Assembly: GCA_017455205.1 (NCBI GenBank)
Contig: JAFTBM010000035.1
Location: 2,933 to 66,932 of the forward strand
Reading direction: 5' to 3'
Source of the DNA: Bacteroidales bacterium
GTDB lineage: Bacteria; Bacteroidota; Bacteroidia; Bacteroidales; P3
Length of the DNA: 64,000 nt
Shown: positions 30,929-45,785 of the stretch, piece after piece
Numbering within the stretch: the stretch's first letter is position 1
Layout: each line of letters starts with the position of its first letter
Made by a program: the position numbers and the translations under genes
Notes under the pieces: generated by a model
Told to the model about the DNA's origin: nothing
Seen by the model: only the letters and a program-made list of their open reading frames with translations
The model's database searches: none

Positions 30929-30967
30929 CTGCGGGGTGAATGGTAGGGTTCGCCCCGCAGTTTTTTA
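30929..30967 (+). terminator. Rho-independent terminator of the lipoprotein gene
   Basis: CTGCGGGG (30929-30936) pairs with CCCCGCAG (30953-30960), followed by TTTTTT. Confidence 0.7.
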
Positions 30968-31137
30968 TAGTGGATGTGAAGCAAACCAGAGGGATGAAAT
31001 AATTGCCGTGCGGTGCGGTGTGCAGAAGTTTACATCCCTGCCTGTGGTATTATGCCCCATTGGGGTTGAAAGGGGCTTCGGGGGATGGTGATTTTATTTT
31101 GTTGGGCTGGGTGTGGAAAAAAATTCGTATATTTGCA

Positions 31138-31145
31138 CTTGGAAA
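31138..31145 (+). promoter_or_regulatory. -7 promoter box TATATTTG upstream of the giant cargo gene
   Basis: Matches TAnnTTTG followed by CA. Preceded by an A/T run and a G-rich upstream tract. Confidence 0.5.
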
Positions 31146-31227
31146 TTGTGCCTGCACGGGTGGGTACAATGGCCTATAGATGAATTGCAATGAAATGAAA
31201 CACAGCGATATTAAAAACATTTGCGAT

Positions 31228-34200
31228 ATGAAAAGGGCGTTGGTTTTGATGGGTGCAATGCTGACATTAATGGCGGGAAACGTCAGGGCGCAGGTGTATG
31301 AGATGTATTATCAAGGCTTCGAGAGTGGGCAGTCGGCCACGTATAGTGTAACGACGAGTGGAAGTGAGGCTGACAGCGTGCTGGTGCGGACAGGAAGTCG
31401 GAGTCTGCGACTGCTGCAGAACAAGACGGCGGATGTGGAGTTGGTGCTTGACACGATAGACTTTTCGCAGAATGTAGCGTTGCGCTATGTGGCGTTGGAG
31501 TTTGACCATGTGTGTAATCTGCCGACTAATGGTAGCCGTGGGGTAGGGGAGATTTACGTGAAGAGGGCAGGGCAGTCGGACGATAGTTATGTGCAGCTTT
31601 CGGGCAGCGAGTATAACAGGGATGGTGATACCTACAGCGACCCGTTCACGATGCTTTTGGCGTTCAACCGTGCGTCGTATGATGAGTGGGATGTGGCAGC
31701 GGTGGACAATAGTAGCTGGAAGCATGAGCGGTTTGATATAGACAATATCCTTGGCGGGGCATCAACCACGGCGGAGCGGAAATTGATTATTAAGTTCAAG
31801 CTGGACAGACGGACGGTTTCGGGCGATGTGCCCGCCGATGGAGGATGGTGGCTGGACAATGTGAGGGTGCGTGCGAGCCAGAGCAAGATAGTGAGTCCGA
31901 AGTTGGATATGGTGGTCTATCCCGATGGGGAGTTGCTTCCGAGCAGCCGTGGGGCGAAGGTGGCACTGGATGCATACACGTCGGTGGCGGAGGGGATAGA
32001 CGGTGACTCGGTCTATGTGGTCTATCGGGTAGGGAGCAGTGGGGTGGAGCATAGGGTGGCGATGGCTTCGCAGGGAGCTGCACAGCGACACGATGGAGTG
32101 GCGGCCACGCGTTTCGCCTGTAGGATACCTTTTTACGGCTACGACACGCTGATGCGTTTTTATTGCGTAGTGAAAGATGCCACCACAAACGCCAACGAAG
32201 TAACCTTCCCGAAGTCGGGAGGACAATGGGTGGAGTATAGGTGCGTCAGGGGAGAAGCTCAGACGAACAGCACAATACCCGCTGCCCTAACGGGGACTTC
32301 GACCAGCACGGCGTTCCCCTTCCCGAAATACATTGACAATCGGAGCGAGTGGATATACGATTCGGCACTGATGGCATCGGCAGGCTACGGTCCAGGAGGG
32401 ATTACGGCGATGAGGTTTGTGCTGGGCGGTGCTGTGCAGGCGCAGACGCGGACAAACTTGCAAATAAGGATGAAGAACGAGGGGACGGACTACACGGTGT
32501 CGGGGAAGCAGAACTATGTGAGCGGTTACATGCATGTGGTGTGGGATTCGACACTCAGCATAGCGGCAGCTGATGCGGGGTCGGAGGTGGTAATCAGGCT
32601 GCAAGATACCTTCTTCTATGCTGGCAAGGATGTGGTGATGCAGGTGATATACGATGGTACGGGGAGTGCCGACCCCGAGGCGGCGAGCGTGCAAACTATT
32701 GCCACGGGAAGCAACAAGCTTTCGAAGGTAAGGAACGGCAAGAGTTACTCGGCGGGAGTGAATACTTACACAGACGAAGAGTTCCTCGAGCCGTCGTCGG
32801 TGGAGCGTGTGAGGCCAGTGGTGGTGATGACTGCGGTGGAAAATCAGGTGCTGGTGCATGATATGGGAGTGGCAGCTATAGTATTCCCCAACGAGACGTC
32901 GCCCATAGTGTCGCAACCAGCACAATTGCAAGTGCAGTTGAAGAACTATGGCGAGGATGCGGTGCAAGCCATAAGGATAAGCTATGCCATTGATGGCACA
33001 ATACCGACTGGCTACTACGACTGGACGGGCAACTTGGCAGGTCAGGCATCGGCAACGGTTACGATAGCCACGGGGGTGACACTGGCGGCGGGTTACCACA
33101 CCATTAGGGCGTGGGTGGAGGATACGCTGACATCCAGTGGGGCGAGGTATAGAGATCATGAGCCGCTCAACGATACGGCGGCGGCAGAGTTTATCGTCTG
33201 TGCGGGACCATTAAGAGGAGTGAAGACAGTGGGAGGAACGGGTAGCGACTATGCCACGCTGCATGAGTTGCTATTTGACATAGGCAGTTGTGGGGTGAAC
33301 GACTCGGTGATAGTGCGATTGGCTCCTGGCTATTATGAGCCTTTTGTGATGCCTGCGATAAGTGGCATTTCGGCGACGCACTACATAGTGTTCGAGCCTG
33401 CGAATGGCAGTGTAGTGTTCTATGCCGATACGACGGTAGGGAATGCCACAGCGATAGCCGACCTGACTTCGGGTGGGTATGTGCGGTTTAGGAACGTAGG
33501 GTTTGTGAGACGCAGCGGGGCTTTGAGTTATATGGCAGAGCTGGGCGTTTCGAGTACCGATTGTAGGTTTGAGGGGTGTTGGTTTACGGATAGCTTGAGT
33601 GGGCAGTCGTCGGATATGCGAATTGCGGCGATGGTGTTCACTGGCGGTGCCAACAATGTGGTGGTGAATGGCTGTCGGTTTGTGGGTGGAGGCGTAGGGG
33701 TGGACATCCAAGGGATCTCGGCATCAAGCAGAGCCACTGGCTGCAGCGTGAGCAAGAGTTATTTCAAAGGGCAGTATACGGATGCCATCAGTGTGCGCAA
33801 CGCTACGGGAACGAAGGTGGTGGGCAATGAGATGTACGATGTCGAAAGCAGTGCGAGTGCGGTGGTGATAGTCTATCAGTGCAATGGTGCGACAGAAATC
33901 AGTGCCAACAAGATATACACCTCACATGGGGCAAGCGGACTGATGGTCAGTGGGGTGGAAGGCACATCGGCACAGCATGCGTTAGTGGCGAACAATATGA
34001 TAGTCTGTGCAGACGATGGTGCAGCCACCACGGCACAGACACCGCTCAATGTGCTGCAAGGTGCATGGTTGGACGTGGTGTATAATGCGGTGAAGCACAA
34101 TGCGGCAACGCGTAGCAACTTGCCAGCGGTGGTCTTCGGTGGAATCCAAACGACCAATAGCCGACTGATGAACAACATTATAGCCTGCTACGACGGAGTC

Positions 34201-37200
34201 AATTTCGCCTTGAGTCTGCAGACTTCCACGCCGAGCAGTAATCAGTTGGGGAACAATGTGTACTACTCGGCGGGGAGTACGCTCAACCGCGTTGGGGCTG
34301 TATCTTATTCGAGCCTTGACGCGTGGCAGTCGGCGGTGACGCTGGATGGGAACTCGCTGTCGCTCGACCCAGTGTTTCTTAATACCGAGTTGGTGGACTT
34401 GCGTACCTACAACCGTTTCATCAAAGGAAAAGGAACGCCGATTAGTGGGGTAGCGAGCGATATGTTTGGAACAGCCCGAAGTTCGTCCAGTCCATGCCCT
34501 GGGGCATTTGAGTATGCCTCGCTGCAGTATGATTTCGAGGTGGATGCGTTGGTGAGTCCAGTGGCAGATACGTGCCAAATGCCAGCCACGGTGGCCTTGA
34601 CGGTGCGACTACGCAACAACGGGATTAGGAGCTACGCGATAGGCACTGGGGATACGCTATGGATTTCGTGCCAAATGAATGGGGGGGAGGTGCGGAAGGT
34701 AGCTGTTGGCCATTCAGTGCCGAGTGAGGATACAATAACGGTTAGTACGGGACTGACCTATCAGCTGCCTGCCAACGGCATTTATGATTCAGTGTATGTG
34801 GTGAAAGTGTGGGTAGCGTATGCTGGTGATCCCAATCAGACCAACGACACAAGCCTTTTCACTGTGGTGAGTCGCTATCATCAAGAGGCAGCTGATGACT
34901 TGGCGATGACCATTCCGTATGCAAGCCAAGCGACGGTGGTGCCGAGTTCGGGAGTGGCGCAGTGGAGCGTTTATGCCAATGGGTCGGCTCCCAAGAAGAG
35001 GTCGCAGCTGTTTTGGTATCGCAGCATGTCGGACGTTGTACCTTTTTATCAGGGAGATACGTTGCAGACCGATGTCTTAAGGCAGGACACACACTACTAC
35101 TTTAAGCAGCGGAGGTTGCTTCCAGTGGTGAGACTAACGCAGGTGCAGATAAAAGGTACGGGGGCAGTGGGTCTGACGAGTCCTATGCCATCGTGGATGG
35201 GGAGTTCGACCCTGTTGGCGGTGCAGCTGACCAATGTGGGCGATGATACCGCCTACTTGGCAGGCGATACGTTGAAGATGGTGTCGGATGTGGCAGCTAT
35301 TAACAACCAGTATATCCGTTTTGGCGATGTGAGGATAGCACCAGGAAAAGCGATGGTGGTGCAGTTTGCAGCTGGTACAAGCACGAATGCCTCGAAGACG
35401 GTATACACAGGGCTGAACATGAGCCAGTCGCCCACAGCCTCAACCAAGTTCGGACTTATCTATAAGCATGAGAGCGAGGTGGAGGATGCGGTAGCAATCA
35501 ATAGTATTGAGTCAAATGCTCGTTGGACGACGATGGCAGTGCCGAGTTATGTGTGGAGTGGTAGTGGGGTAAATGTGTCTCCCAGTACGACGGGAGGGAT
35601 AGTGAGACAGGCGTTTAATGGGATGGCCTCGGACTGGCGGATGGCCACGACGGCACAGCCGATGATGATAGATACGATAGCCGAAGGATGGTTGATGTAT
35701 GTCGATAATGGTTGTCCAACAGAGTTCGCAACAGCCACGGTCAATATGGCCACTCACCCAGCAGTGGATATCTCTCTGCAGGCGGGTAACCTGGCTTCGG
35801 GGTGCAATTTGGGCAATGAAGAGGTCTCGGTTATTGTGCACAACTACGGACAGCAGGCGGCCACAGGTGTGCAGTTACATTACACAGCTGGTGGACCTGT
35901 CGTGAGTGAGACGATGAGTGGAAGTGTGGCATCGGGAGCCGATGTAACCTTTACTTTCACGCAACGGCTCAACATGGCGGTGGCACAGGATTCGCTCTTC
36001 AGGGTAGTTATATGGGCGACAAAGCTTTCGGCAGATTCGGAACAAAGCAATGACACGACGGTAGTGCAGTCGCTTGCACGCTATACGCCATCGGCTCCAG
36101 TATTAGCCTCAACGATGTCGGTTCCCTATGGCACAAGTGCAACGGTTAGCCCTACGCCGTTGCCAAGAGCAACAATGATATGGTACGATAGTTTGGACAA
36201 TCCGATTGATACTGCCAACAACTATGTATCTGCCCCGCTCTATGAAACCACGCTCCTCGGAGTGAGTTATCTAATGGCCGATAGTAGCGGTGGACAGATA
36301 GGTTCGGCTGCAACACGTACCACTGCCACTGCCTACCCCTCCCCCTACCAACCTTACAATGCGATGGCCAAGCAGCAGTATATTTATTCGGCCAGCGAGT
36401 TGAGGACATTGGGAATTGAGGCTGGAAACATCACGGCAGTGGCGTTCCATCTCGACTCGATATTGGGTAGTGTACAATCGCTGACGTTCAGCAAGTATTA
36501 TATCTCTATGGGGCTTACCGATGACACGCTGTTCTCATCAATGACGGCATGGAAGGCCACACAGGTGGTTTACAACCGTAGCTCGTTCAGCGTCAGCAGG
36601 AGTGATATTGGTCAGTGGGTCAGTCATAAGCTGGATACACCTTTTGTTTGGGATGGCATGTCGAATTTAGTGGTACAGGTGGTGCATGAAAACACGTCGG
36701 CTGTTACCACTGGAGTGCAGACCACATATAGCAGCAAAAGTAACAGCTGCCTCACCTATGGGTCAAATAGTTCGCTCTCTCCCTCGGCTCTGGACTATAC
36801 TGGGTCGGGAAGGATGAGTGGCAACAGGCCGAATATACACATAGAGCAGGTGCTTTATAGTTGCCAAAGCCCGAAGGTATATACCACTATCACCCTCTCT
36901 GGCCAGCCTAATGTAGACGCTCGTATCACCTGGCCCGATGGCTACGACACGGTAACGTACACTTCGTGTAGCAATATCGCACTCAACGTAAAGCTCCAGA
37001 ACCTCGGCTTGCAGGCATTCAACAGCGTAAATCTTCACTACACTATAGACGGGACAACGGTGGGTTCAACGACCATCAACAGCGTGCTTGCACGCGGAAA
37101 TGCTACTACCGTGCAACTATTCAGTCGCCCCTTGAAGCCTGGCAGGCATTATGTGGTGGCATGGGTCGCCTTGAGCGGCGATGAAGAAACGAGCAACGAC

Positions 37201-40200
37201 ACGATAGTGCTGCCGCTGACGGTGAAGTTCTGTGCAGGGTCATACACCATTGCGCAGACTGCGAGTGCCGATTATCGTAGCTTTGGCGAGGCTGTGGACA
37301 GTCTGGTGCAGGTAGGTATAGCGGGAAGTGTGGTGTTCAATGTGGCACAAGGAACCTATACCGAGCAGGTAAGCCTCGGAGCGATTGGTGGAACATCGCA
37401 AGCACAGACTGTTACGTTTAGGGGTGCCTCCGTCAGTAGCACAACACTGAAAGCGGCTACCTCCCAGAGTATAAACTACGTGCTTAATATTGATGGTGCG
37501 TCAAACGTGGTATGGGAAGGCATGACCATCACTTCGCGTCCACAGTCTGGCAACTTTGGCAATGTGTTGGTCATTCAGAATGCAAGCCATATTACACTGC
37601 AGAACAATATGGTCAAGGTGAGCGGTAATATCGACAACGACAACGCATCCTGCATCGTGCTGCAAGGTAATGTGGACGGATTAACGCTGCAAGGCAATAC
37701 ACTCGACAGCGGCTACTATTCGCTCCGCGAAAAGGGTACTGCCTATAACTACACCAACATAACCATTCAAGGAAACACGTTTACTAACTTCCGCTATGGA
37801 GCAGTGGCCTTACAAGGAGCAACCAACGTCAGCATTGCGGCCAATAGCATGCTATCAGGCCATACGACAATCAACCGAGGCTTGGTTGGCATAGGATTGA
37901 CGCAGGTGGATGGTACATTGAGCATCAGCAAAAACACCATCTATTTGGCCGATGATATGAATGGTGGCAAGCAGGGTATTAATCTCAACAAGGTGAAATG
38001 CACTGCTTCGAGCAGCGGGACGGTGGTGAATAATATGATAAGTGCTTGTGGCACAGGTGCCACGGCGTTGAGCAACCCTGGAGGTATTGTAGCCACCGAT
38101 TGCGAATACTTGAACATCATCTACAACAGCATCCTGACGCGGACTGGAAGCAGTACCATTTCGCGTGGCATGCTGCTCACGCAATCGGCTACTGACACCT
38201 CGCATCACCTCACTGTGATGAACAACGTGATTGTCAATCGCAGTTCGTATGCCTACTACGTCTCGCCCTCTACCGTAGTGGCTGCCTCCGACTACAACAA
38301 CTATGTCTCCCCCACGGGACTCCCGATTGCCTACTGGAACGCTGACCAATACACCTTGACCAACCTGCAGTCGGCCAACGGGCGCGATGGCAGCTCAATG
38401 GCAGAGGAAGTCTACTTCGTCAACGACACCAACTTGCACCTTTCGATGACCAACCTCTCTGGCAAGGCACAGTATAATCCCGATGTCATTGACGATATTG
38501 ATGGCAACGCACGACCGCAGCTCCCTCCCCCCACTATCGGTGCTCATGAAGTCAGTCTGACAGCGCACGATATGGCTCTGGTACGTGTGATTTCACCAGT
38601 GATGCCAGTCAGCATAGCCCGACCGATCAATATCGAGAGCGACTCTATCCTTGTGAAGGCACTCTTCTATAATAATGGTAGCTCCACCGAGAGCAATGCC
38701 TACTGGTATGCCTACGTGGAAGGCTATGGTGCTGCAACTCGCTCGGCCAACCGCTCGCTCGGTACGATGCTGCCGACGCAGTCCAAGACCGACTCGGTGT
38801 GGCTCTATTCTCCACTCGGTGTGGTAGATTCGCAGAGTGTAAAGATAGTACTGGTCGCCCCAACCGACGACGATGCATCCAACAACACGGCCTCTGCTCC
38901 ATTCTATATTGCCCCAGCGTTCAACCTCGGTGCGGTAAGTATTGCGACCTCCAAGACGGGTTGCGATATGCAGCAAACCCAAGTGTTGCTGACGCTCTCC
39001 AACGATGGAGCCAAGGATATTCCCACAGGCTTCACCATTGAGGTCGGCTACTCCGCCCAAGCCTATTACCCCACCTACGATGCATCCAACCCCTCGGCCT
39101 ATCGGCAGGCAGTCTCTACTATGCCTGGCTCTATTAGGGAGAACATTACCCTTACCAACCCATTCCAACGGGGTACTTCGCAGACTTTCACCTTCTCCGC
39201 CCCAGCCAATTTCTACCCAACCGACACCGCTATAAACCTAAAAATTATGCTCCGTGGCTGGTGCAACCTGACTTACGACCTCGTCCCCACCAACGACTCT
39301 GTATGGTCGGATGTGATCAATTCCTACTATTCTCCACGTCCAGCTGTGGGGCACGACACCACGCTTGCCTACGCCACTTGGGGCGAGGTAACGGCATCTC
39401 AACCCGACTATCGACCCATTCAGTGGTATCGCGACACCACGGCCTCCCCCTTCTACAATATGAGCAACTACTTCAGCTCCTGTCGCTGGTCCAACACTCC
39501 CATCTTCACCCACGACTCTACCTACTACCTTCGCAGCGTCAGCGACCTCGGTTGCCTCAGTGCATTCACCGAGGTGCATGTCCATGTGGCTGCGCAGCAG
39601 ACCAACGATGTGGGTGTGGCCACAGTGCTTGCTCCGATGGGTCGGCGCGTCTACACGGAGAATGACACCGTCCGCGTGCGTATCACCAACTACGGGACGC
39701 AGTCGCAACGCTCCTTCCCTGTAACCTACGAGGTGCGCGGTGGCAACAATCAAGCACCTTTCCAGGTCGTAACCGAGACCTGTGAGGTCTCCATCGCACC
39801 CAACCAGTCCTATGACTTTAAGTTCGATTCGCTCATCTCCTTCACCGACCCCTTGGAGGGCAAGAACTACTACCTCCGCGTATGGACCGACCTCGCGAAT
39901 GATGCCACTCGTCGCAACGATACTATCCGTTGGACGAACAGCCTCCGCCCCGCAGCAACCAACAACACCACCGTTGACTATCCGTTTGTTACCCTGCCCG
40001 AGACCAACTACGGTATTCGTGCCAACATCCCCAACGATGCCAGTGTGGATGTTGTCCGTGTATCGTTCAACGAGATTGACTTCGAGATGCCCCCGTTGGG
40101 GAGGTCGTTCACCAATATGGCTGGCTTCACCTCGCCCGAATACCCCGTGCTGCGGTTACCGCGCGGCTCGCAGGACACGCTGACCATTGCAATCCAGAAC

Positions 40201-43026
40201 CCCGCCGACCCCGAGGCTACGCCCAATGGTATGGTGGCAGCCTATATCGACTTCGACCGTTCTGGCACTTTCCTTGATGCGGGCGAAGAGGTTCTGCCTG
40301 CCACCCGCGTCAATAGCCGTGAGCCTATTAAAGTGGGGATAACCATCCCGCAGTCGGCAGCCAACGGCCACATGCGTCTGCGTGTGGTGGCCTCCAACGA
40401 GGGGAAAGCCCCCATTCCCACCCTTGCCTCCAGCGATGGCCATATCGTGGACTTCTTGATTTTTATCGATCCCGAACCTGCGTTCACCGACCTCGCCCTA
40501 ACGCAAGTCGCATCGCCCTATAGCAGCTTGCTCCGCACCGACAGCAACCTCGCTGTTGCTTTCCGTATGAGTAATAAGGGCACCTCTACCATCAATAATG
40601 CTACATTCCATTATTCCTACTATTTCCGCGACCTCGACAGCACCTACAACGGCACTTTCGACTGGTCTGGCACCCTCTCCACGGGGCGTAGCACCTTGGT
40701 GAAGCTCCCCCCCGTCCTCATTCCCTGCGGCACAGCCGACTTCAAAGTCTGGCATTCCACCCCCTCCGATGCCAACACCTCCAACGACACCTTGGCCCAC
40801 GAATACCACCGCCCGTATGTGGTTACCCTCGTCTACAACGATAATTTCAACGGTGAAGACCTATGGTATGCCCCGACGGGTCGCACCAAGTACACTCGCA
40901 ATCAGTGGCAACGCGGTATCACCACCAAGCCGACATTCTCCTCTGCTCATTCCTATCCCAATGCTTGGGCCACCAATCTGACCACAGATATCACCGTAGG
41001 CACTTGGGGCAATATGAGCTACCTCTATAGCCCCATTATCAACATCTCCCAAATACGTGCCGACTCGGTGGCCTTCTATCTCTGCCGTATGTTCGATACC
41101 ATCAGCGTCAGCTATCTCCGTCTGGAATATTTGGACTATACTGGCACTTGGCGCAATATGCGCGACGAGGCCGACAGCACCTGGTATACCAACGAGCAGC
41201 GCACAGCCTTCGACAATGTGGGGCAAAACGCTCATCTTAACAGCAGTGGCAAAGCCACTTATCAGCGTTTTGCGTTCAGCACCTCTTCGACAGGTATCGG
41301 CGATGAATTCAACGAGATGCTTCAACTCCGCTTTGTCTACGTCGCAGCCCAAGGCTCCAACGAGAATTCTACCTGCGGCAGTGGCTGTGCTATCGACGAC
41401 TTTTTGGTTACTCGTGCCCGCCGTCCTATCGATGTGGGAGCTTTCAAGGTAACCTATCCCACCGCACCCCGAGTAGGCGATATCGTCTATCCTCAAGTGG
41501 CTGTGAAAAACTACGGCCTCGACACCGTCTACACCTTCCAAATGGGCTACACAACCTATGAAAACTATATCCCCACCATCACTACCGTCCAATGCGCCAT
41601 ACCTCCCGACTCTGTCGATACATTTGCCTTCCCCAACCCCATTGTGATTACATCTGATTTCCCCGACACTTTCGCCATCACCGCCTTTACCGCTCTAGTG
41701 GAAGATATATATGTGGAGAACGACACCGTCCGTACAAAATTCCGCCTCTCTCCACTCGACCACGACATCAGTGTCGTAGAGTTCGTCTCGCCTCGCCCAA
41801 CCGTCATCGGGGGCGACTCCGTGGCCGTTACGCTCCGCATCCGCAACTTCGGCATAGATAGCATCTCTCGTGCCACGCTCTCTTTCATATTCAACACTAA
41901 CACTCGTTGCGATGAGGAGGTCGATTTCACACAGCTCATAGGCCGCCCGTTGGCCACCTTCGAGTATTTCAACTACACCTTCTCCACCAAGGTGCGTGTG
42001 CCGATGGGAATGATGAACTTCGTCGGTATCGCCAAGTGCGATGCCAACGATTACCTTGGCAACGACACCATCCGCCTGCGTGTGTCGGGTATTTCCTCCG
42101 TAACCGATGTCGCAGCCTCCTCCCTTATCATCGACTCCTCGAGCTTCAACTCTATGCGGGTACAGCTGGTCATCGACAACCGTGGAGCCCGCGGCGCCAA
42201 CAACTTTGAGGTAGGCTTCTGGTACGACAACGACACTTCCACCATCCATCGCGAGACCTTCCATCGCGACACTCCCATCCCAGCCCTCACCTCCTACACC
42301 CACGCTTTCAATATCGAACTCCCCACGCGCCAAATCCCCTATAGCCAAGTGGTAGGATTTGTGCATATCGACAACGACCACGACCCCTCCAACGACACCA
42401 CCTACTCCCGCTCCACCCAATACGTCGACCTTGAAGTGCTCAGTGTGCTCGTCGAAGAAAACGCAAACCCCGACTGTCGGGTCTTCCTTCGCCTGCGCAA
42501 CATTGGCAACCTCGCTGTGGAGAACCGTATTGTCCCGCTGCGAGCCGTGGTCAATGGCGTTGAACTTGCCAACAACACCACGCGCAGCTTTGCCCCTGGC
42601 GACATCGTCAATGTGGAATTCCCCACCACCATCCCCAAAAACGACCTTCGCCGTTATTCGGGAAGTGGCTGGCTGCAATCCTTCCCCATGGACAACAACT
42701 CCTCCAACAACCAGACCTCTGTGGTTCGCGTGGTGAACTATATGGAGGGCATACCACTGGTTGATGCTGGCCTCTTCACCCTCGGGCAGAACTATCCCAA
42801 CCCAGCCGCCCAGTCCACCACCATTCCATTCTCGCTCCCCTCCGATGCCGAGGTGCACTTCTTTGTGATGGATGCACTGGGCAAACGGGTCGTCAGCCAG
42901 CACTTCTTTGCTCCTGCGGGCGAGAACTCTTTGCAGCTCGACCTCCGTCCGCTCGCCTCAGGAGTCTACTACTATGGTCTCGAGGTGGATGGTGAACGTC
43001 GTATGCTTAAGTTAATCCACCGTTAA
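31228..43026 (+). CDS. Giant T9SS cargo/adhesin-like protein (3,932 aa): choice-of-anchor-J/MAM-like N-domain, at least 12 CARDB-like beta-sandwich modules, two parallel beta-helix regions, type-A CTD
   Basis: Start taken at MKRALVLMGAMLTLMAGNVRAQ. YYQGFESG N-domain. Repeated modules end in an N-D-T motif (e.g. PNQTNDT, SEQSNDT, EETSNDT, ATRRNDT, HDPSNDT). NN(M/I)I/GN beta-helix repeats at about aa 700-1000 and 2030-2400. The C-terminus NYPNPAAQSTTIPFSL...GVYYYGLEVDGERRMLKLIHR is a CTD. Confidence 0.9.
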   Translation: MKRALVLMGAMLTLMAGNVRAQVYEMYYQGFESGQSATYSVTTSGSEADSVLVRTGSRSLRLLQNKTADVELVLDTIDFSQNVALRYVALEFDHVCNLPTNGSRGVGEIYVKRAGQSDDSYVQLSGSEYNRDGDTYSDPFTMLLAFNRASYDEWDVAAVDNSSWKHERFDIDNILGGASTTAERKLIIKFKLDRRTVSGDVPADGGWWLDNVRVRASQSKIVSPKLDMVVYPDGELLPSSRGAKVALDAYTSVAEGIDGDSVYVVYRVGSSGVEHRVAMASQGAAQRHDGVAATRFACRIPFYGYDTLMRFYCVVKDATTNANEVTFPKSGGQWVEYRCVRGEAQTNSTIPAALTGTSTSTAFPFPKYIDNRSEWIYDSALMASAGYGPGGITAMRFVLGGAVQAQTRTNLQIRMKNEGTDYTVSGKQNYVSGYMHVVWDSTLSIAAADAGSEVVIRLQDTFFYAGKDVVMQVIYDGTGSADPEAASVQTIATGSNKLSKVRNGKSYSAGVNTYTDEEFLEPSSVERVRPVVVMTAVENQVLVHDMGVAAIVFPNETSPIVSQPAQLQVQLKNYGEDAVQAIRISYAIDGTIPTGYYDWTGNLAGQASATVTIATGVTLAAGYHTIRAWVEDTLTSSGARYRDHEPLNDTAAAEFIVCAGPLRGVKTVGGTGSDYATLHELLFDIGSCGVNDSVIVRLAPGYYEPFVMPAISGISATHYIVFEPANGSVVFYADTTVGNATAIADLTSGGYVRFRNVGFVRRSGALSYMAELGVSSTDCRFEGCWFTDSLSGQSSDMRIAAMVFTGGANNVVVNGCRFVGGGVGVDIQGISASSRATGCSVSKSYFKGQYTDAISVRNATGTKVVGNEMYDVESSASAVVIVYQCNGATEISANKIYTSHGASGLMVSGVEGTSAQHALVANNMIVCADDGAATTAQTPLNVLQGAWLDVVYNAVKHNAATRSNLPAVVFGGIQTTNSRLMNNIIACYDGVNFALSLQTSTPSSNQLGNNVYYSAGSTLNRVGAVSYSSLDAWQSAVTLDGNSLSLDPVFLNTELVDLRTYNRFIKGKGTPISGVASDMFGTARSSSSPCPGAFEYASLQYDFEVDALVSPVADTCQMPATVALTVRLRNNGIRSYAIGTGDTLWISCQMNGGEVRKVAVGHSVPSEDTITVSTGLTYQLPANGIYDSVYVVKVWVAYAGDPNQTNDTSLFTVVSRYHQEAADDLAMTIPYASQATVVPSSGVAQWSVYANGSAPKKRSQLFWYRSMSDVVPFYQGDTLQTDVLRQDTHYYFKQRRLLPVVRLTQVQIKGTGAVGLTSPMPSWMGSSTLLAVQLTNVGDDTAYLAGDTLKMVSDVAAINNQYIRFGDVRIAPGKAMVVQFAAGTSTNASKTVYTGLNMSQSPTASTKFGLIYKHESEVEDAVAINSIESNARWTTMAVPSYVWSGSGVNVSPSTTGGIVRQAFNGMASDWRMATTAQPMMIDTIAEGWLMYVDNGCPTEFATATVNMATHPAVDISLQAGNLASGCNLGNEEVSVIVHNYGQQAATGVQLHYTAGGPVVSETMSGSVASGADVTFTFTQRLNMAVAQDSLFRVVIWATKLSADSEQSNDTTVVQSLARYTPSAPVLASTMSVPYGTSATVSPTPLPRATMIWYDSLDNPIDTANNYVSAPLYETTLLGVSYLMADSSGGQIGSAATRTTATAYPSPYQPYNAMAKQQYIYSASELRTLGIEAGNITAVAFHLDSILGSVQSLTFSKYYISMGLTDDTLFSSMTAWKATQVVYNRSSFSVSRSDIGQWVSHKLDTPFVWDGMSNLVVQVVHENTSAVTTGVQTTYSSKSNSCLTYGSNSSLSPSALDYTGSGRMSGNRPNIHIEQVLYSCQSPKVYTTITLSGQPNVDARITWPDGYDTVTYTSCSNIALNVKLQNLGLQAFNSVNLHYTIDGTTVGSTTINSVLARGNATTVQLFSRPLKPGRHYVVAWVALSGDEETSNDTIVLPLTVKFCAGSYTIAQTASADYRSFGEAVDSLVQVGIAGSVVFNVAQGTYTEQVSLGAIGGTSQAQTVTFRGASVSSTTLKAATSQSINYVLNIDGASNVVWEGMTITSRPQSGNFGNVLVIQNASHITLQNNMVKVSGNIDNDNASCIVLQGNVDGLTLQGNTLDSGYYSLREKGTAYNYTNITIQGNTFTNFRYGAVALQGATNVSIAANSMLSGHTTINRGLVGIGLTQVDGTLSISKNTIYLADDMNGGKQGINLNKVKCTASSSGTVVNNMISACGTGATALSNPGGIVATDCEYLNIIYNSILTRTGSSTISRGMLLTQSATDTSHHLTVMNNVIVNRSSYAYYVSPSTVVAASDYNNYVSPTGLPIAYWNADQYTLTNLQSANGRDGSSMAEEVYFVNDTNLHLSMTNLSGKAQYNPDVIDDIDGNARPQLPPPTIGAHEVSLTAHDMALVRVISPVMPVSIARPINIESDSILVKALFYNNGSSTESNAYWYAYVEGYGAATRSANRSLGTMLPTQSKTDSVWLYSPLGVVDSQSVKIVLVAPTDDDASNNTASAPFYIAPAFNLGAVSIATSKTGCDMQQTQVLLTLSNDGAKDIPTGFTIEVGYSAQAYYPTYDASNPSAYRQAVSTMPGSIRENITLTNPFQRGTSQTFTFSAPANFYPTDTAINLKIMLRGWCNLTYDLVPTNDSVWSDVINSYYSPRPAVGHDTTLAYATWGEVTASQPDYRPIQWYRDTTASPFYNMSNYFSSCRWSNTPIFTHDSTYYLRSVSDLGCLSAFTEVHVHVAAQQTNDVGVATVLAPMGRRVYTENDTVRVRITNYGTQSQRSFPVTYEVRGGNNQAPFQVVTETCEVSIAPNQSYDFKFDSLISFTDPLEGKNYYLRVWTDLANDATRRNDTIRWTNSLRPAATNNTTVDYPFVTLPETNYGIRANIPNDASVDVVRVSFNEIDFEMPPLGRSFTNMAGFTSPEYPVLRLPRGSQDTLTIAIQNPADPEATPNGMVAAYIDFDRSGTFLDAGEEVLPATRVNSREPIKVGITIPQSAANGHMRLRVVASNEGKAPIPTLASSDGHIVDFLIFIDPEPAFTDLALTQVASPYSSLLRTDSNLAVAFRMSNKGTSTINNATFHYSYYFRDLDSTYNGTFDWSGTLSTGRSTLVKLPPVLIPCGTADFKVWHSTPSDANTSNDTLAHEYHRPYVVTLVYNDNFNGEDLWYAPTGRTKYTRNQWQRGITTKPTFSSAHSYPNAWATNLTTDITVGTWGNMSYLYSPIINISQIRADSVAFYLCRMFDTISVSYLRLEYLDYTGTWRNMRDEADSTWYTNEQRTAFDNVGQNAHLNSSGKATYQRFAFSTSSTGIGDEFNEMLQLRFVYVAAQGSNENSTCGSGCAIDDFLVTRARRPIDVGAFKVTYPTAPRVGDIVYPQVAVKNYGLDTVYTFQMGYTTYENYIPTITTVQCAIPPDSVDTFAFPNPIVITSDFPDTFAITAFTALVEDIYVENDTVRTKFRLSPLDHDISVVEFVSPRPTVIGGDSVAVTLRIRNFGIDSISRATLSFIFNTNTRCDEEVDFTQLIGRPLATFEYFNYTFSTKVRVPMGMMNFVGIAKCDANDYLGNDTIRLRVSGISSVTDVAASSLIIDSSSFNSMRVQLVIDNRGARGANNFEVGFWYDNDTSTIHRETFHRDTPIPALTSYTHAFNIELPTRQIPYSQVVGFVHIDNDHDPSNDTTYSRSTQYVDLEVLSVLVEENANPDCRVFLRLRNIGNLAVENRIVPLRAVVNGVELANNTTRSFAPGDIVNVEFPTTIPKNDLRRYSGSGWLQSFPMDNNSSNNQTSVVRVVNYMEGIPLVDAGLFTLGQNYPNPAAQSTTIPFSLPSDAEVHFFVMDALGKRVVSQHFFAPAGENSLQLDLRPLASGVYYYGLEVDGERRMLKLIHR

Positions 43027-43042
43027 TCCTGTAGTCGCAACT

Positions 43043-43072
43043 GGGTGCGGCAGCCTTTCGGCTGCCGCACCC
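43043..43072 (+). terminator. Strong hairpin after the giant gene (terminator-like, no T-run)
   Basis: Perfect 13-bp stem GGGTGCGGCAGCC / GGCTGCCGCACCC with a TTTC loop. Confidence 0.5.
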
Positions 43073-43103
43073 GCGGCCATAGCCTCCGCCCCCTCCCACC
43101 GCC

Positions 43104-44462
43104 ATGCTGCAACGTTTCGCCGACTATATTAGGCTCCATGGCCTCATCGCCGAAGGCGAAAGAACCCTCCTCGCCGTCAGCGGCGGACGCGATTCCGTCT
43201 GCCTCGCCCACCTCGCCCACCAGCTCCACCTTCCCTTCGCCATTGCCCACTGCAACTTCCACCTCCGCCCCTCCGACTGCGATCGCGACCAGGAATTCGT
43301 CCGCAGCCTCGCCCAGTCTCTCCATGTCCCCTTCTTCACCACCGATTTCGACACCCACGCTTATGCCCAAGCCCAAGGCTACAGCCTCGAACAGGCAGCT
43401 CGCCTTCTGCGCTACGCCTACTTCGCCCACCTCTGCCAGTCCGAACACTACTCCCGCCTCGCCACAGCCCACCACCTCGACGACTCCATCGAGACTTTCT
43501 TCCTCAACCTCTTCCGAGGCACTGGCATAGCAGGTCTACACGGCATCCTCCCCCTCTCCCATCTCACCCTCCCACCCACCGACACCGCTGTCGCCGACGC
43601 TCCGCCCATCAGTCTCACCGTAGTGCACCCTATGCTCTGCTTCTCCCGCGCCGAAATCGATGCCTACCTCGCACAGCATCAATTAGCCTATGTGGACGAC
43701 AGCACCAATTTCGAACCCGAGGTGCAGCGCAACCGCATCCGTCTCCAGCTGATGCCTCTCCTGCGCGAGCTTTACCCCTCGGTCGATACTACTATGCAGG
43801 CCAACATCCATCGGCTGCATGAGGTAGAGCAGGTCTATCGGTTGCATATCGAAGACCTTCGTCGCAAGCTCTGCCATCGTGTCGCCCCCCGTCTTCCTTG
43901 GCTCTCCATGCCCATCGATGCGTTCCCCCTGACCAGCCTCGCGACCCTCTCCCCACGCAGCACCCTCCTCTTCGAACTCTTGCGTCCCTATGGCTTCAAT
44001 GCCTCCGTGGTGGCCAATATCGAAGCCTCTCTCCCTTCCCCCCAATCGGGTAGCCAATTCTGCTCGCCAACCCACCGTGCCGCCATTGACCGCGACCAGC
44101 TCCTCGTTGCACCCATTCCCCCCCCCACCGCTCCCACCCTCACCATCCGCGAAACCACTCTCCCCTCCTCCCCCCGCACCGATGCCTGCCAGATCTACGT
44201 CGCCCCCACCAGCCTCCGTCTGCCACTGCGTCTGCGCCCCTGGCATCCAGCCGACCGCTTCTGCCCCTTCGGCATGAGCGGAAGCCGACTGGTCAGCGAC
44301 TTCCTGAAGGATGCAAAGCTCAACGCCCTCGAGAAGCCGCATGTCCAACTGCTCGTTGATGCCAGCGATAGGGTGGTCTGGGTTGTCGGCCTGCGAGCCG
44401 ACAACCGCTTCCGTGTGCATCAAGCAGGCGATGCCTGCTGGCTCGTCAGCGTATCGCAATAA
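43104..44462 (+). CDS. tilS: tRNA(Ile)-lysidine synthetase
   Basis: PP-loop LLAVSGGRDSVCL, AHHLDD and a TilS C-terminal domain. 452 aa. Confidence 0.9.
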   Translation: MLQRFADYIRLHGLIAEGERTLLAVSGGRDSVCLAHLAHQLHLPFAIAHCNFHLRPSDCDRDQEFVRSLAQSLHVPFFTTDFDTHAYAQAQGYSLEQAARLLRYAYFAHLCQSEHYSRLATAHHLDDSIETFFLNLFRGTGIAGLHGILPLSHLTLPPTDTAVADAPPISLTVVHPMLCFSRAEIDAYLAQHQLAYVDDSTNFEPEVQRNRIRLQLMPLLRELYPSVDTTMQANIHRLHEVEQVYRLHIEDLRRKLCHRVAPRLPWLSMPIDAFPLTSLATLSPRSTLLFELLRPYGFNASVVANIEASLPSPQSGSQFCSPTHRAAIDRDQLLVAPIPPPTAPTLTIRETTLPSSPRTDACQIYVAPTSLRLPLRLRPWHPADRFCPFGMSGSRLVSDFLKDAKLNALEKPHVQLLVDASDRVVWVVGLRADNRFRVHQAGDACWLVSVSQ

Positions 44463-45714
44463 AACTCTTCACCGCCAGCAGCCGGTCGCCACGGTCGGCA
44501 GGCGTGTGCTGATAGACATAGACCGTGTAGCGGTTGCTGGTCTCGCTATGGTCGCCTTCGAGCTGTGCCGTCTTCGACTCCCACTGCGAATACTGCCCGT
44601 TGGCATAGAGCAGCTGGTAGGAATAATAACCCTGCTTCAAGAAAAGGCGTAGCGTGTAGGCCTTGATGGTGGGATTGTATTGCATCATCGAGGTCGAATC
44701 CATCTTCCAGTCGGTGATTGCACCCACCACATGCACGTTGCCATCCATATAAGGCTGCTGCATCGGCAGGCTGAAGTTCACCCACACGTAGTCCGCCTCC
44801 AGCCGAGGATTTTCCCTGTCCCAGATATTCACCTTCATCCCCCCGTTGAGCACCGTCTCGTTGAGGTAGTGCTTCCGCGAACGGTCATCCTCGGGATTAA
44901 GCACCACAAACTGCTCCCCACCATAGTTCTCCACGCTCGACACATTATAGCCCGTCCCCCGCAGGTTGCTGCAGTCAAAATAGCGAAACGTGTTGCCCCC
45001 ATCGAAGATATTGCACTGTCGGTTGGCAAACAGCACCGCCTGGCCTTCGTAGCCGCTAAACTCCAGCAGCCGCATGTTATCCAGCCTACCATTCTGCTGC
45101 ACCGCCACCGTCAGGTACTCGGGCCGCTGGTCGGTCGCCACCGCCACATCCACCTCCTGCCGTCGCCCCACACCGATGCCGTCGTAGGGGCGCGTATTGG
45201 TCGCCCTCACCGTGGTCTTCTGCTCGCTTACGCAAAAACGGCGTGTCAGCAGCACCCCGCTCTTGCCGAGGTCTTCCTCGCTGCTGATGGTCAGCTCGTA
45301 GTTGCCCGAGTGCGTAAACGCAGCGTAGCGGTCGGGCAAGAGGCACCGATAGTGGACATACTCCACCGTGGTGGTAAACGAGAACTCGAAATCCTCTATC
45401 GTCCCCTCGGCAAACCCCGTCATAAACTCCTCCGGCTGCAAGTCGTCGGGCACCCAGCAGCGGTCGCAGTGGCGAATGCTCCAATGCAACCTCTCCGATC
45501 GTGTACCCATCACGTCGAACTCCACCACCAGCCGCCCCCTCGCCCCGAGGGTGAGCATCGGCACTGGCAGCGCCTTCTGCGGATTGTCGCCCGTGGTGCT
45601 GTTGAACATCACCACCGTCCGCACATCCTTCCGCCAAATGGAATCCACTGCAACCCTTGCACTTACTCCCCAGCTTGCCACCACGGCAAGCACTATTGTC
45701 ATCATCTTTTTCAT
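44446..45714 (-). CDS. DUF5103-family protein (T9SS SprA-plug-like)
   Basis: Signal peptide. The pattern ...L.VEFDVMG......L.WSIRHCDRCWVPDDL...EF..GF......FEFS..T.V.Y.HY matches the DUF5103 N-terminal consensus as I recall it. Family recognition only. Confidence 0.65.
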   Translation of the reverse strand: MKKMMTIVLAVVASWGVSARVAVDSIWRKDVRTVVMFNSTTGDNPQKALPVPMLTLGARGRLVVEFDVMGTRSERLHWSIRHCDRCWVPDDLQPEEFMTGFAEGTIEDFEFSFTTTVEYVHYRCLLPDRYAAFTHSGNYELTISSEEDLGKSGVLLTRRFCVSEQKTTVRATNTRPYDGIGVGRRQEVDVAVATDQRPEYLTVAVQQNGRLDNMRLLEFSGYEGQAVLFANRQCNIFDGGNTFRYFDCSNLRGTGYNVSSVENYGGEQFVVLNPEDDRSRKHYLNETVLNGGMKVNIWDRENPRLEADYVWVNFSLPMQQPYMDGNVHVVGAITDWKMDSTSMMQYNPTIKAYTLRLFLKQGYYSYQLLYANGQYSQWESKTAQLEGDHSETSNRYTVYVYQHTPADRGDRLLAVKSFIAIR

Positions 45715-45785
45715 GCCGCAAATATACCAAATTTATTCCACATACCCGCAATTTCTTTTCATGCACTCTCCCTGCCGTTTAGGTT

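What the first reader, a model, noticed from the sequence alone, without database searches (positions are those of the whole stretch)
37800..38600. Synonymous-codon regime switches inside one ORF: G-ending codons for about 7 kb, then C-ending codons for about 4.8 kb
Hand counts in the giant ORF (31228-43026):
- First about 200 codons: ACG accounts for 8 of 13 Thr codons (ACC 2). GCG, TCG, GTG, TTG, CTG, CGG and GGG predominate.
- Last about 110 codons: ACC accounts for 6 of 6 Thr codons. GCC, TCC, CTC and CCC predominate.

Reading along the gene, the change-over happens gradually around 37.8-38.6 kb. I see no frameshift, repeat or obvious domain boundary there.

Most other genes in the window use the C-ending regime on both strands (clpP, lepA, tilS, the fibre genes). 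This makes a replication-strand effect unlikely.

Possible causes (inference):
- A mosaic gene created by recombination with a donor of different codon usage.
- Transcription-associated strand asymmetry spreading from the promoter.
- Selection for G-rich, C-poor 5' mRNA, for example to escape Rho loading on a very long transcript.
Basis: seen in the sequence. Interest (0 to 1): 0.65.

Follow-up and report, generated by a model that had tools for sequence, protein, structure and literature searches.

The report
Conserved codon-skew gradient in giant gene
A 12-kb gene for a secreted surface protein in an uncultured gut/rumen Bacteroidales bacterium really does drift from G-ending to C-ending codons along its length, and because about 70 related species show the same 5'-to-3' polarity it is a maintained strand-composition gradient tied to the gene's transcription unit, not a recombination scar, though its cause is still open.

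Summary
At fourfold-degenerate sites, G/(G+C) is 0.75 in 31228-36215, 0.49 in 36216-38993 and 0.25 in 38994-43023 (LLR 129; permutation maximum 8). Every codon family shifts and every neighbouring-base context shows it.

It is not a mosaic. The change is graded. The 5' and 3' halves have the same nearest relatives. 68 of 75 full-length orthologues from different Bacteroidales species, with saturated synonymous sites, share the polarity; the window ranks second.

It is not per-ORF translational selection.
- tilS overlaps the giant gene's stop codon in most species and shows no reset.
- The untranslated leader is G>C in 62 of 68 species.
- The convergent minus-strand T9SS plug gene is G-rich in its own frame.
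- Codon position 1, A/T and twofold codons co-vary.

It is not replication: flanks lack replichore-scale skew.

It is not a general rule for long operons or promoter-proximal genes.

Best reading: a nucleotide-level purine-to-pyrimidine strand field anchored at the conserved promoter of the giant-tilS operon. The cause is unresolved. I favour selection on transcript C/G content (Rho-related) over a transcription-linked mutational asymmetry, with modest confidence.

The parts
30928..30971 (+). Intrinsic terminator (14-bp stem plus T-run) closing the upstream gene 30446-30904. It isolates the giant gene's transcription unit.
   Evidence: terminator scan; sequence read
31128..31135 (+). Bacteroidetes-type -7 promoter box TAtaTTTG of the giant-tilS operon.
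   Evidence: Sequence. The same box is found in 65 of 65 orthologous loci at a median 97 nt (IQR 96-98) before the conserved Met, against a background of 8% per 300 nt. The motif is 8.5-fold enriched in intergenic DNA of the window.
31136..31227 (+). Untranslated leader of about 90 nt. It is AT-rich with G>C and carries a conserved TGTAA..ATTGA motif about 40 nt before the start codon.
   Evidence: Leader GC skew is +0.25, positive in 62 of 68 species. Alignment. No Rfam match.
31228..43026 (+). Giant ORF (3932 codons from the conserved Met): a T9SS-secreted surface protein with signal peptide, Ig_7, CARDB, GEVED and a Por_Secre_tail C-terminal domain.
   Evidence: Pfam; ORF list; full-length orthologues in 75 species
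31228..36215 (+). G/purine regime domain. Fourfold G/(G+C) is 0.753 (0.716-0.788), purines are 70% of fourfold sites, GC3 skew is +0.33. Only 5.5% of 90-nt windows have C>G.
36216..38993 (+). Transition zone. Fourfold G/(G+C) is 0.486. The sigmoid midpoint is about 37503 and the best single change point is 37693.
38994..43026 (+). C/pyrimidine regime domain. Fourfold G/(G+C) is 0.247 (0.210-0.286), purines are 27%, GC3 skew is -0.48. 93% of 90-nt windows have C>G. It corresponds to the GEVED/CTD core shared with shorter homologues.
43027..43103 (+). C-rich 77-nt spacer with a perfect 13-bp GC hairpin (43043-43072) and no T-run. This is a derived state: in most species tilS overlaps or abuts the giant gene's stop codon.
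   Evidence: Sequence. Gap median is -1 nt, IQR -1..5, in 74 loci.
43104..44462 (+). tilS (tRNA-Ile lysidine synthetase), co-transcribed with the giant gene. It continues the C regime (0.15) without a reset.
   Evidence: Pfam. Pooled over 73 loci, the giant gene's last 300 codons give 0.256 and the first 150 codons of TilS give 0.286.
44446..45714 (-). T9SS plug-protein gene, convergent with tilS and overlapping it by 17 nt. It is G-rich in its own frame (0.66), so the plus strand stays C-rich across a gene of opposite orientation.
   Evidence: Pfam. Pooled 0.548 in 43 loci against a clade baseline of about 0.37. G-rich along its whole length.
45719..45735 (-). Two overlapping -7 boxes (TAnnTTTG) 12-21 nt upstream of the plug gene. 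They mark the far end of the plus-strand C-rich field.

Best explanation
The switch is the most visible part of a strand-specific, nucleotide-level composition field laid over one conserved locus: the operon made of the giant T9SS-cargo gene and tilS, plus the convergent plug gene.

Shape of the field:
- It starts at the operon's conserved promoter and leader, where the sense strand is rich in G (and A) and poor in C.
- The bias decays smoothly along about 12 kb and crosses the genome baseline near mid-gene.
- It becomes strongly C/pyrimidine-rich in the 3' half. That state continues through tilS and across the opposite-strand plug gene up to the plug gene's own promoter.
- The polarity is maintained in most related species although their synonymous sites are saturated, so an ongoing force keeps it. 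The window's lineage is an extreme case.

Most likely force (inference, not shown): selection on the C/G (pyrimidine/purine) content of the nascent transcripts in relation to Rho.
- The 5' half of the giant mRNA would be Rho-refractory while RNA polymerase runs ahead of the first ribosomes on a leader without a Shine-Dalgarno sequence.
- The distal half would be left, or kept, Rho-permissive.

Shown: reality of the switch, its gradedness, conserved polarity, nucleotide-level nature, anchoring at the promoter, no reset at tilS, crossing of gene orientation, and absence of mosaicism. I hold this descriptive part at about 0.9.

Inferred: that transcription is what anchors the field, and that Rho-related selection rather than mutation bias maintains it. 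The confidence given for this entry (0.35) is for the whole statement including that mechanism.
For: Reality and shape.

Conserved polarity:
- 68 of 75 orthologues have negative slopes (51 at p<0.001, against 1 significant positive).
- Sign test on the 5'-minus-3' difference gives p=5e-11. The window ranks 2nd of 75.
- Synonymous sites are saturated: same third base 0.34 against 0.28 expected.

Anchoring at the promoter:
- The -7 box lies at a fixed 97 nt in 65 of 65 loci.
- The leader is G>C in 62 of 68.
- There is a terminator just upstream.
- The value jumps at the gene start in strongly graded lineages.

Nucleotide-level purine/pyrimidine axis: the 5'-minus-3' difference at fourfold G/C co-varies across species with R-ending twofold codons (r=0.32), Y-ending twofold codons (-0.45), fourfold A/T (+0.42) and codon position 1 (+0.50). 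This is the axis reported for Rho avoidance in PMC13323073 (excess C and %T promote Rho termination; wobble purines and amino-acid usage shift).

One transcription unit: tilS overlaps the giant gene's stop codon in most species and does not reset.

Crossing of gene orientation: the plug gene gives 0.548 in its own frame against a 0.37 baseline.

Rho is essential and regulated in Bacteroides (PMC13269538, listed).
Against: - No fine-scale avoidance of C>G windows was found when synonymous codons were shuffled among identical amino acids in 8 lineages (z within +-2).
- The 3' half is more C-rich than the genome baseline (-0.61 logit). It must still be transcribed to make a secretable protein and, in most species, tilS. 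A simple 'protect the transcript from Rho' logic does not predict that.
- Ordinary genes in the clade are pyrimidine-rich at wobble sites (baseline 0.37). Genes with a -7 box are not G-richer (0.370 vs 0.374).
- Another long operon shows no conserved gradient.
- Bacteroidota are not among the phyla classed as having runaway transcription in PMC13323073.
- No transcript, Rho or polymorphism data were available.
Confidence: 0.35

Rival explanations
1. Transcription-linked mutational strand asymmetry. The giant-tilS operon and the plug gene are convergent, and each makes its own non-template strand G-rich. Sense transcription dominates the 5' half of the giant gene. Read-through from the plug promoter dominates the 3' half. 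The switch marks where net transcription flux changes sign.
For: - The field is orientation-independent and spatially continuous.
- All three codon positions follow it.
- There is no fine-scale compensation, as expected for a regional mutational pressure.
- Flanking genes in the clade show a local strand component that ignores gene orientation and fades within about 2.5-5 kb: same-strand r=0.66/0.58, opposite-strand r=-0.36/-0.27.
- Within the giant gene the correlation decays smoothly with distance.
Against: - G co-varies with A, not with T. That is opposite to the keto (G+T) signature of cytosine deamination on an exposed non-template strand.
- The amplitude (0.85 vs 0.15) far exceeds known transcription- or replication-associated skews (my knowledge).
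- Well-expressed housekeeping genes here are C-rich, not G-rich: ProRS 0.16, ClpP 0.24, LepA 0.31.
- Promoter-proximal genes are not G-richer in general.
- No conserved antisense promoter lies inside the gene.
Confidence: 0.22
2. Position-dependent translational selection: the cost of ribosome drop-off (nonsense errors) grows with codon position. C/pyrimidine-ending 'safe' codons would therefore be increasingly favoured toward the 3' end of a 3,900-codon ORF, while the 5' end drifts to the mutational equilibrium.
For: - The theory predicts exactly this polarity (PMC13271495 section 21).
- Per-lineage profiles are adequately logit-linear: BIC prefers linear in 33 of 50 graded lineages.
- Ordinary genes show a weak gradient of the same sign that grows with length: +0.032 first half minus second half, p=9e-9.
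- Housekeeping genes prefer C-ending fourfold codons.
- Multi-gene operons show no gradient.
Against: - There is no reset at the tilS start codon, and the polarity within tilS is reversed.
- The untranslated leader shares the 5' G-richness.
- The opposite-strand plug gene shares the field.
- Codon position 1 and amino-acid composition co-vary with the synonymous skew.
- 5' values of 0.8-0.87 exceed any plausible neutral equilibrium seen in other genes of the window, whose maximum is 0.66.
- The most C-skewed genes are low-expression ones such as tilS, DUF7033 and RlpA.
Confidence: 0.07
3. Mosaic gene: the 5' 5-7 kb was imported by recombination or horizontal transfer from a donor with G-ending codon usage, or the N-terminal extension keeps the composition of its source.
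For: - The G-regime part coincides roughly with an N-terminal extension absent from shorter homologues, which align only from residue about 2561.
- GC3 is lower in the 5' part: 0.62 vs 0.69.
Against: - The transition is graded, not sharp.
- Identity and neighbour ranking are equal for both halves.
- Homologue spectra are the same for separate 5' and 3' searches: best hits 48% and 47%.
- The same polarity occurs in 68 of 75 species with saturated synonymous sites, so any ancestral signal would have been erased.
- No repeats or mobile-element remnants were found.
Confidence: 0.03
4. Replication-associated skew switch (terminus-like + to - change), or a relic of an inversion between inverted paralogues, located inside the gene.
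For: - The sign change is in the terminus-like direction.
- Mean plus-strand skew is slightly positive upstream and negative downstream in the meta-profile.
- The upstream signed strand component correlates weakly with the gene's first 750 codons (r=0.32).
Against: - In the window the plus strand is C-rich on both sides of the G-rich domain, and there are several further sign changes within 64 kb.
- The strand component in flanks fades within 2.5-5 kb and is not locus-wide.
- Genes downstream of the plug gene return to baseline in relatives.
- The axis is purine/pyrimidine, not keto/amino.
Confidence: 0.04
5. Chance, amino-acid composition, codon-context effects, or an assembly chimera.
For: Amino-acid composition does differ between the halves: Gly 8.7 vs 5.4%, Ala 10.5 vs 7.2%, Pro 3.5 vs 6.0%.
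Against: - LLR is 129 against a permutation maximum of 8.
- The difference holds within every synonymous family and every neighbouring-base context.
- Independent assemblies give the identical sequence.
Confidence: 0.01

Closest known systems
Coding-strand purine bias driven by Rho avoidance under runaway transcription (Dierksheide, Taggart, Johnson & Li, Nat Microbiol 2026, PMC13323073)
   Same: - The axis is the same: sense strand rich in G/A and poor in C/T.
- It is visible at fourfold wobble positions and in amino-acid usage.
- It is tied to the direction of transcription and not to replication.
- The 5' 5 kb of the giant gene looks like a Rho-refractory sequence by that paper's 'excess C' logic.
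   Different: - That bias is described as genome-wide and uniform along genes, in Bacillota and other 'runaway' phyla.
- Here the genome default is the opposite (pyrimidine-rich wobble).
- The bias is confined to one locus, decays along the gene and reverses sign in the 3' half.
- Bacteroidota are not in that paper's runaway set.
- No Rho data exist for this organism.
Position-dependent codon adaptation from the cost of nonsense/processivity errors (Eyre-Walker 1996; Gilchrist and co-workers; PMC13271495)
   Same: A 5'-to-3' increase of the codons preferred in well-expressed genes, with a roughly logit-linear form. A weak version is seen in ordinary genes of the clade.
   Different: The field does not reset at the next ORF. 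It includes untranslated RNA and a gene on the other strand, and it involves non-synonymous positions.
Transcription-associated strand asymmetries concentrated near the 5' end of genes (described for human genes; Francino & Ochman for E. coli; recalled from my own knowledge, not checked here)
   Same: A strand asymmetry anchored at the transcription start that changes with distance.
   Different: The known cases are small in amplitude and of the deamination (G+T) type. Here the amplitude is very large (GC3 skew +0.33 to -0.48), the axis is purine/pyrimidine, and the sign reverses.
Strand-asymmetry gradients in vertebrate mitochondrial DNA that scale with time spent single-stranded (my knowledge)
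   Same: A smooth, kilobase-scale gradient of very strong G/C asymmetry at synonymous sites along one strand.
   Different: That gradient is replication-driven, of the deamination type, and genome-wide in a 16-kb genome. Here it is confined to one chromosomal locus.
Giant T9SS-secreted surface proteins of Bacteroidota (signal peptide ... Por_Secre_tail)
   Same: The protein itself is an ordinary member: signal peptide, Ig-like, CARDB and GEVED domains, and a C-terminal sorting domain.
   Different: Nothing unusual at the protein level. The unusual feature is the nucleotide composition of its gene and its operon link to tilS.

Membership tests
Rho-avoidance purine bias (PMC13323073) | The sense strand has excess purines and low 'excess C', including at fourfold wobble positions. 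| tested here: inconclusive
   Met in 31228-36215: 70% purines at fourfold sites, and 5.5% of 90-nt windows have C>G. The opposite holds in 38994-43026: 27% and 93%.
Rho-avoidance purine bias (PMC13323073) | [quoted passage not shown] | tested here: met
   The domain starts at the conserved promoter and leader. No replichore-scale strand effect is seen in the flanks.
Rho-avoidance purine bias (PMC13323073) | The bias is a property of genes genome-wide in the organism. | tested here: not met
   The clade baseline is pyrimidine-rich: 0.37 G/(G+C), with T>A at fourfold sites. Promoter-proximal genes are not enriched.
Rho-avoidance purine bias (PMC13323073) | Pyrimidine-rich recoding causes Rho-dependent termination, and the organism has Rho and uncoupled transcription. 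| not testable with these tools
   This needs reporter assays and a Rho inhibitor. Rho is essential in B. thetaiotaomicron according to PMC13269538.
Nonsense-error (processivity-cost) codon gradient | Use of preferred codons rises with codon position. | tested here: met
   Negative slope in 68 of 75 orthologues. Logit-linear fits are adequate in most.
Nonsense-error (processivity-cost) codon gradient | The gradient resets at each ORF start. | tested here: not met
   The giant gene's last 300 codons give 0.256. TilS gives 0.286 for its first 150 codons, then 0.329 and 0.323.
Nonsense-error (processivity-cost) codon gradient | Confined to synonymous choice in the translated strand. | tested here: not met
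   The leader, the opposite-strand plug gene and codon position 1 all share the field.
Mosaic / horizontally acquired gene segment | Sharp compositional junction. | tested here: not met
   Single step LL -827, against sigmoid -811 and two steps -810.
Mosaic / horizontally acquired gene segment | Phylogenetic incongruence between segments. | tested here: not met
   Identity ranks correlate at r=0.74. The top three relatives are the same. The largest difference between halves is 0.04.
Replication origin/terminus skew switch | Skew of one sign persists for tens of kb on each side of the switch. | tested here: not met
   The window has at least 8 sign changes in 64 kb. The flank strand component fades within 2.5-5 kb.
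T9SS cargo protein | N-terminal signal peptide and C-terminal Por_Secre_tail sorting domain. | tested here: met
   PF18962 at residues 3872-3945. The signal-peptide-like N-terminus MKRALVLMGAMLTLMAGNVRAQ was read.

The most novel reading that the evidence does not exclude
The two halves of a 12-kb mRNA are deliberately given opposite 'Rho codes'. The first about 5 kb is a Rho-proof runway. A Rho-permissive distal half follows and extends through the essential tilS gene. Full-length transcription of a very costly adhesin, and of tilS, would then be gated by whether ribosomes have caught up with RNA polymerase. This would be a built-in, composition-encoded transcription-translation checkpoint conserved across a clade of gut and rumen Bacteroidales. 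More broadly, synonymous G/C skew could serve as a positional regulatory code inside genes.
Probability: 0.15. Interest if true: 0.85.

Novelty: new variant of a known kind. Interest (0 to 1): 0.62.

Why it matters
Codon-usage and GC-skew analyses usually treat a gene as compositionally uniform, and they read intragenic breaks as recombination or assembly errors. This case breaks both habits.

- A very large intragenic sign reversal of synonymous G/C skew is conserved in polarity across about 70 species.
- It ignores ORF boundaries and gene orientation.
- It starts at a conserved promoter.

That makes it a natural test bed for a current question: how much do Rho and transcription-translation coupling, as opposed to mutation bias or tRNA pools, shape synonymous sites? 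The test would be in a phylum (Bacteroidota) where translation initiation lacks Shine-Dalgarno pairing and Rho is known to be specially regulated.

It is also a practical warning. Skew- or codon-based detectors of horizontal transfer and misassembly would flag this gene wrongly.

Tried and rejected
1. Whole-protein homology search timed out. I replaced it with separate 5' and 3' searches.
2. Internal antisense promoter driving the G-rich domain. A strict Bacteroidetes promoter consensus lies antisense at 36735-36767, at the domain edge. Across 75 orthologues, however, such motifs are 4 antisense against 7 sense inside the gene, with no positional conservation. Rejected as a general cause.
3. 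Antisense coding. The long antisense ORFs have no Pfam hits.
4. 'Distance from promoter' as a general rule.
   - The window's three longest predicted units all decline.
   - But there is no trend with rank in co-directional runs in 56 loci.
   - There is no decline in the MiaB-PASTA-cargo-RluD unit in 80 related loci.
   - There is no G-enrichment in genes with a -7 box.
5. Plateau-step-plateau shape with lineage-specific steps. This was my visual impression, but BIC prefers a simple logit-linear decline in most lineages.
6. 'Pivot at mid-gene' from slope-versus-end correlations. Discarded as a statistical tautology of two independent ends.
7. Fine-scale compensation test for Rho-type window avoidance: null.
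8. Strain polymorphism for a mutation-versus-selection test. The three other assemblies of this species are identical to the window.
9. Polarised substitutions from close species pairs. Only a few pairs have fourfold identity of 0.6-0.67, too diverged.
10. The first plus-strand correlation matrix in the flanks was confounded by the coding-strand default. Redone with signed residuals.
11. Rfam search of the leader found nothing.
Full report
WHAT IS THERE. The window comes from an uncultured gut/rumen Bacteroidales bacterium. Its nearest database relatives are RUG/RGIG/UBA metagenome-assembled genomes, and the species itself is not among the GTDB representatives. The giant ORF (31180-43026 mechanically) encodes a surface protein secreted by the type IX secretion system (T9SS). 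It has a signal peptide, Ig_7, CARDB and GEVED domains and a Por_Secre_tail sorting domain. Upstream lie a strong terminator (30928-30961) and a Bacteroidetes -7 box, TAtaTTTG, at 31128-31135. Downstream come tilS (43104-44462) and a convergent, overlapping T9SS plug-protein gene (44446-45714, minus strand). Three independent metagenome assemblies are 100% identical to the window over 33.1-54.5 kb, so the sequence is not a chimera.

CHECK OF THE OBSERVATION. GC3 skew falls from about +0.3..+0.45 to -0.3..-0.65 along the ORF. I then restricted the count to G- or C-ending codons of fourfold boxes, which removes amino-acid effects.
- The G fraction is 0.71 left and 0.29 right of the best change point (nt 37693). 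LLR is 129, against a maximum of 7.9 in 500 permutations.
- All eight fourfold families flip, and Y-ending twofold codons shift from T to C.
- The contrast survives conditioning on the next base and on codon position 2, with a difference of about 0.45-0.5 in every context.
- A single sharp junction fits much worse (LL -827) than two steps at 36216 and 38994 (-810) or a sigmoid centred at 37.5 kb with a 1.2-kb scale (-811). By BIC even a plain logit-linear decline is acceptable.
- In segments: 31228-36215 gives 0.753, 36216-38993 gives 0.486 and 38994-43023 gives 0.247. Purines at fourfold sites go 70%, 49%, 27%.
- The 5' composition (G .49, A .20, C .17, T .14) is almost the reverse complement of the 3' composition (C .52, T .20, G .18, A .10).
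- No DNA repeats mark the zone.

Of 33 Pfam-checked genes, 20 are below 0.40 and 13 lie at 0.44-0.66, on both strands. None reaches the 0.75-0.87 of the giant gene's 5' end.

IT IS NOT A MOSAIC. Separate searches with the 5' and 3' thirds find equally distant best homologues, at 48% and 47%. Synteny (SpoU-type methylase, giant gene, tilS) shows these are orthologues. A profile scan of GTDB genomes returned 79 loci from different species, of which 75 carry the full-length gene.
- In window-protein coordinates, 68 of 75 have a negative slope of G fraction against position. 51 are significant at p<0.001, against one significant positive.
- The 5'-minus-3' difference is positive in 65 of 75 (sign test p=5e-11). 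The window ranks second.
- Synonymous sites are essentially saturated between lineages: same third base 0.34 against 0.28 expected. Close relatives differ by 0.2 in the 5' value. The pattern must therefore be actively maintained.
- Identity to the window is the same for the 5', middle and 3' parts (0.415/0.385/0.413). Ranks agree (r=0.74) and the three nearest relatives are identical for both halves.

IT IS NOT PER-ORF TRANSLATIONAL SELECTION. The cost-of-nonsense-errors theory predicts this polarity (PMC13271495). Several facts fit it: the near logit-linear profiles, a weak same-sign trend in 383 ordinary genes (+0.032, p=9e-9, growing with length), and the C-preference of housekeeping genes. 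Four results contradict it as the main cause.
1. In most species tilS overlaps or abuts the giant gene's stop codon (gap median -1 nt), and there is no reset. The giant gene's last 300 codons give 0.256. TilS gives 0.286 for codons 1-150, then 0.329 and 0.323. In the strongly graded subset the series is 0.193, 0.197, 0.211, 0.241.
2. The untranslated 85-nt leader is G>C in 62 of 68 species.
3. The convergent minus-strand plug gene is G-rich in its own frame, 0.548 pooled over 43 loci and 0.66 in the window, against a baseline of about 0.37. This holds along its whole length. The plus strand therefore stays C-rich across a gene of opposite orientation.
4. Across species, the synonymous 5'-minus-3' difference co-varies with R-ending twofold codons (r=0.32), Y-ending twofold codons (-0.45), fourfold A/T (+0.42) and codon position 1 (+0.50).

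IT IS NOT REPLICATION, AND NOT A GENERAL OPERON RULE.
- The window has many skew sign changes.
- In the flanks of 45-56 loci there is a species-level component (r about +0.4 for any gene pair more than 5 kb apart). There is also a local strand component that ignores gene orientation and fades within 2.5-5 kb: same-strand r=0.66/0.58, opposite-strand r=-0.36/-0.27.
- The upstream region does not predict the gene's 5' regime.
- The window's three longest predicted units, each starting at a -7 box (5307, 31128, 46988), all decline from at least 0.58 to at most 0.18. This does not generalise. There is no trend with rank in co-directional runs. The MiaB-PASTA-cargo-RluD unit is flat in 80 related loci, at 0.44/0.45/0.43/0.45. 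Genes with a -7 box are not G-richer.

WHAT IT IS. The switch belongs to a strand-specific, nucleotide-level purine-to-pyrimidine field over the conserved giant-tilS-plug locus.
- It begins at a promoter found in 65 of 65 species at a fixed 97 nt before the start codon.
- Relative to each species' own baseline it runs +0.52, +0.21, -0.07, -0.28, -0.61 logit along the gene.
- It stays C-rich on the plus strand up to the plug gene's promoter.
- Lineage-specific deviations are spatially autocorrelated: r is about 0.8 between adjacent 1.5-kb bins, and the two ends are independent. The window and L022 are the extreme tail of this distribution.

HOW IT MAY WORK. The purine/pyrimidine axis, its reach into amino-acid usage and its tie to transcription direction match the recently described Rho-avoidance bias (PMC13323073). 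Only 5.5% of 90-nt windows in the 5' domain have C>G, against 93% in the 3' domain. I therefore favour selection on transcript C/G content. Under this reading the 5' runway is Rho-refractory while ribosomes catch up on a leader that lacks a Shine-Dalgarno sequence, and the distal half is Rho-permissive. My confidence is modest, for four reasons:
- Synonymous shuffling shows no fine-scale avoidance of C>G windows.
- The 3' half is below baseline.
- The genome default is pyrimidine-rich.
- No transcript or Rho data exist.

The main rival is a mutational asymmetry from convergent transcription. It explains the orientation-independence and the smoothness. It predicts a G+T signature rather than the observed G+A one, and it is at odds with the C-rich housekeeping genes. 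An internal antisense promoter (36735-36767) is not conserved.

VERDICT. The mosaic reading is rejected. The promoter-anchored readings survive but remain unresolved. I found no prior description of a conserved intragenic sign reversal of synonymous skew in bacteria. I rate it a new variant of known strand-composition phenomena, of above-average interest.

Noticed in passing
window 43024-43106, and the giant/tilS junction in L007-L085: In most species the essential tilS gene starts 1 nt inside, or within 5 nt of, the stop codon of the 3,900-codon giant gene (gap median -1, IQR -1..5). This implies co-transcription and probably translational coupling of an essential tRNA-modification enzyme to a giant adhesin-like ORF. 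The window's 77-nt spacer with a 13-bp GC hairpin (43043-43072) is a derived state.
   Followed up: partly
window 31088-31236; leaders of 67 loci: The promoter and leader of about 90 nt are conserved. The -7 box GTATATTTG is near-invariant, and a TGTAA..ATTGA motif lies about 40 nt before the ATG. Between them is a variable hairpin-like segment. There is no Rfam match. It could be a regulatory or antitermination element for a 13-kb operon.
   Followed up: partly
window 36735-36767 (minus strand): A full Bacteroidetes promoter consensus, TTTG-N21-TActTTTG, lies antisense inside the giant gene at the edge of the G-rich domain. The window has 5 such hits against 0.29 expected. L023 has one at the same protein position (about residue 1845), but the motif is not conserved in the other orthologues.
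   Followed up: yes
window 50328 (inside gene 49744-51615), 7797, 52834, 55034-56258: The window holds other regime boundaries, one of them intragenic: 0.56 -> 0.25 about 580 nt into a T9SS cargo gene. The RlpA gene contains a stretch (55511-56258) with fourfold G/(G+C) of only 0.04, and DUF7033 is at 0.11. These genes also lose G-ending Lys/Glu/Gln codons.
   Followed up: partly
flanks of L007-L085 (clade-wide): Neighbouring genes share a strand-composition component that ignores gene orientation and fades within about 2.5-5 kb (same-strand r=0.66, opposite-strand r=-0.36 at under 0.6 kb). This is too local for replication, and I have no explanation for it.
   Followed up: partly
L001 13748 and ~18514; L003 ~3806; L004 10001-10023: In several metagenome contigs the orthologous giant gene is interrupted. 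L001 has one in-frame TAG and a frameshift, and L003 and L004 have frameshifts, so gene callers split it into 2-3 ORFs. These are either assembly errors or pseudogenisation. I did not determine which.
   Followed up: no
window 56766-62878: T9SS core operon porP-porK-porL-porM-porN. Its fourfold G/(G+C) rises along the operon (0.35, 0.30, 0.39, 0.51, 0.51) while GC3 falls (0.79 to 0.56). This is the opposite polarity to the giant gene.
   Followed up: no
window 1-4600 and 29021-29302: A low-GC stretch (0.41-0.46) at the left end carries a MauE/DoxX gene and an AbiEii-type toxin gene (2756-3544) preceded by several strict promoter motifs. It is probably an acquired island. A YafQ-type toxin gene lies at 29021-29302.
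   Followed up: no
L052 (CAJOLD010000013.1): This contig carries the Bacteroidales giant-gene locus but belongs to a genome bin labelled 'uncultured Lachnospiraceae'. The contig is probably mis-binned.
   Followed up: no
window 7564-19127: Three further large genes sit in a row (1127, 1868 and 847 aa). The last has a T9SS sorting domain, and the middle one has a sub-threshold Lcl_C match. All are C-regime (0.29, 0.29, 0.18). They are preceded by three small G-neutral genes (0.51-0.58) that follow a -7 box at 5307.
   Followed up: partly
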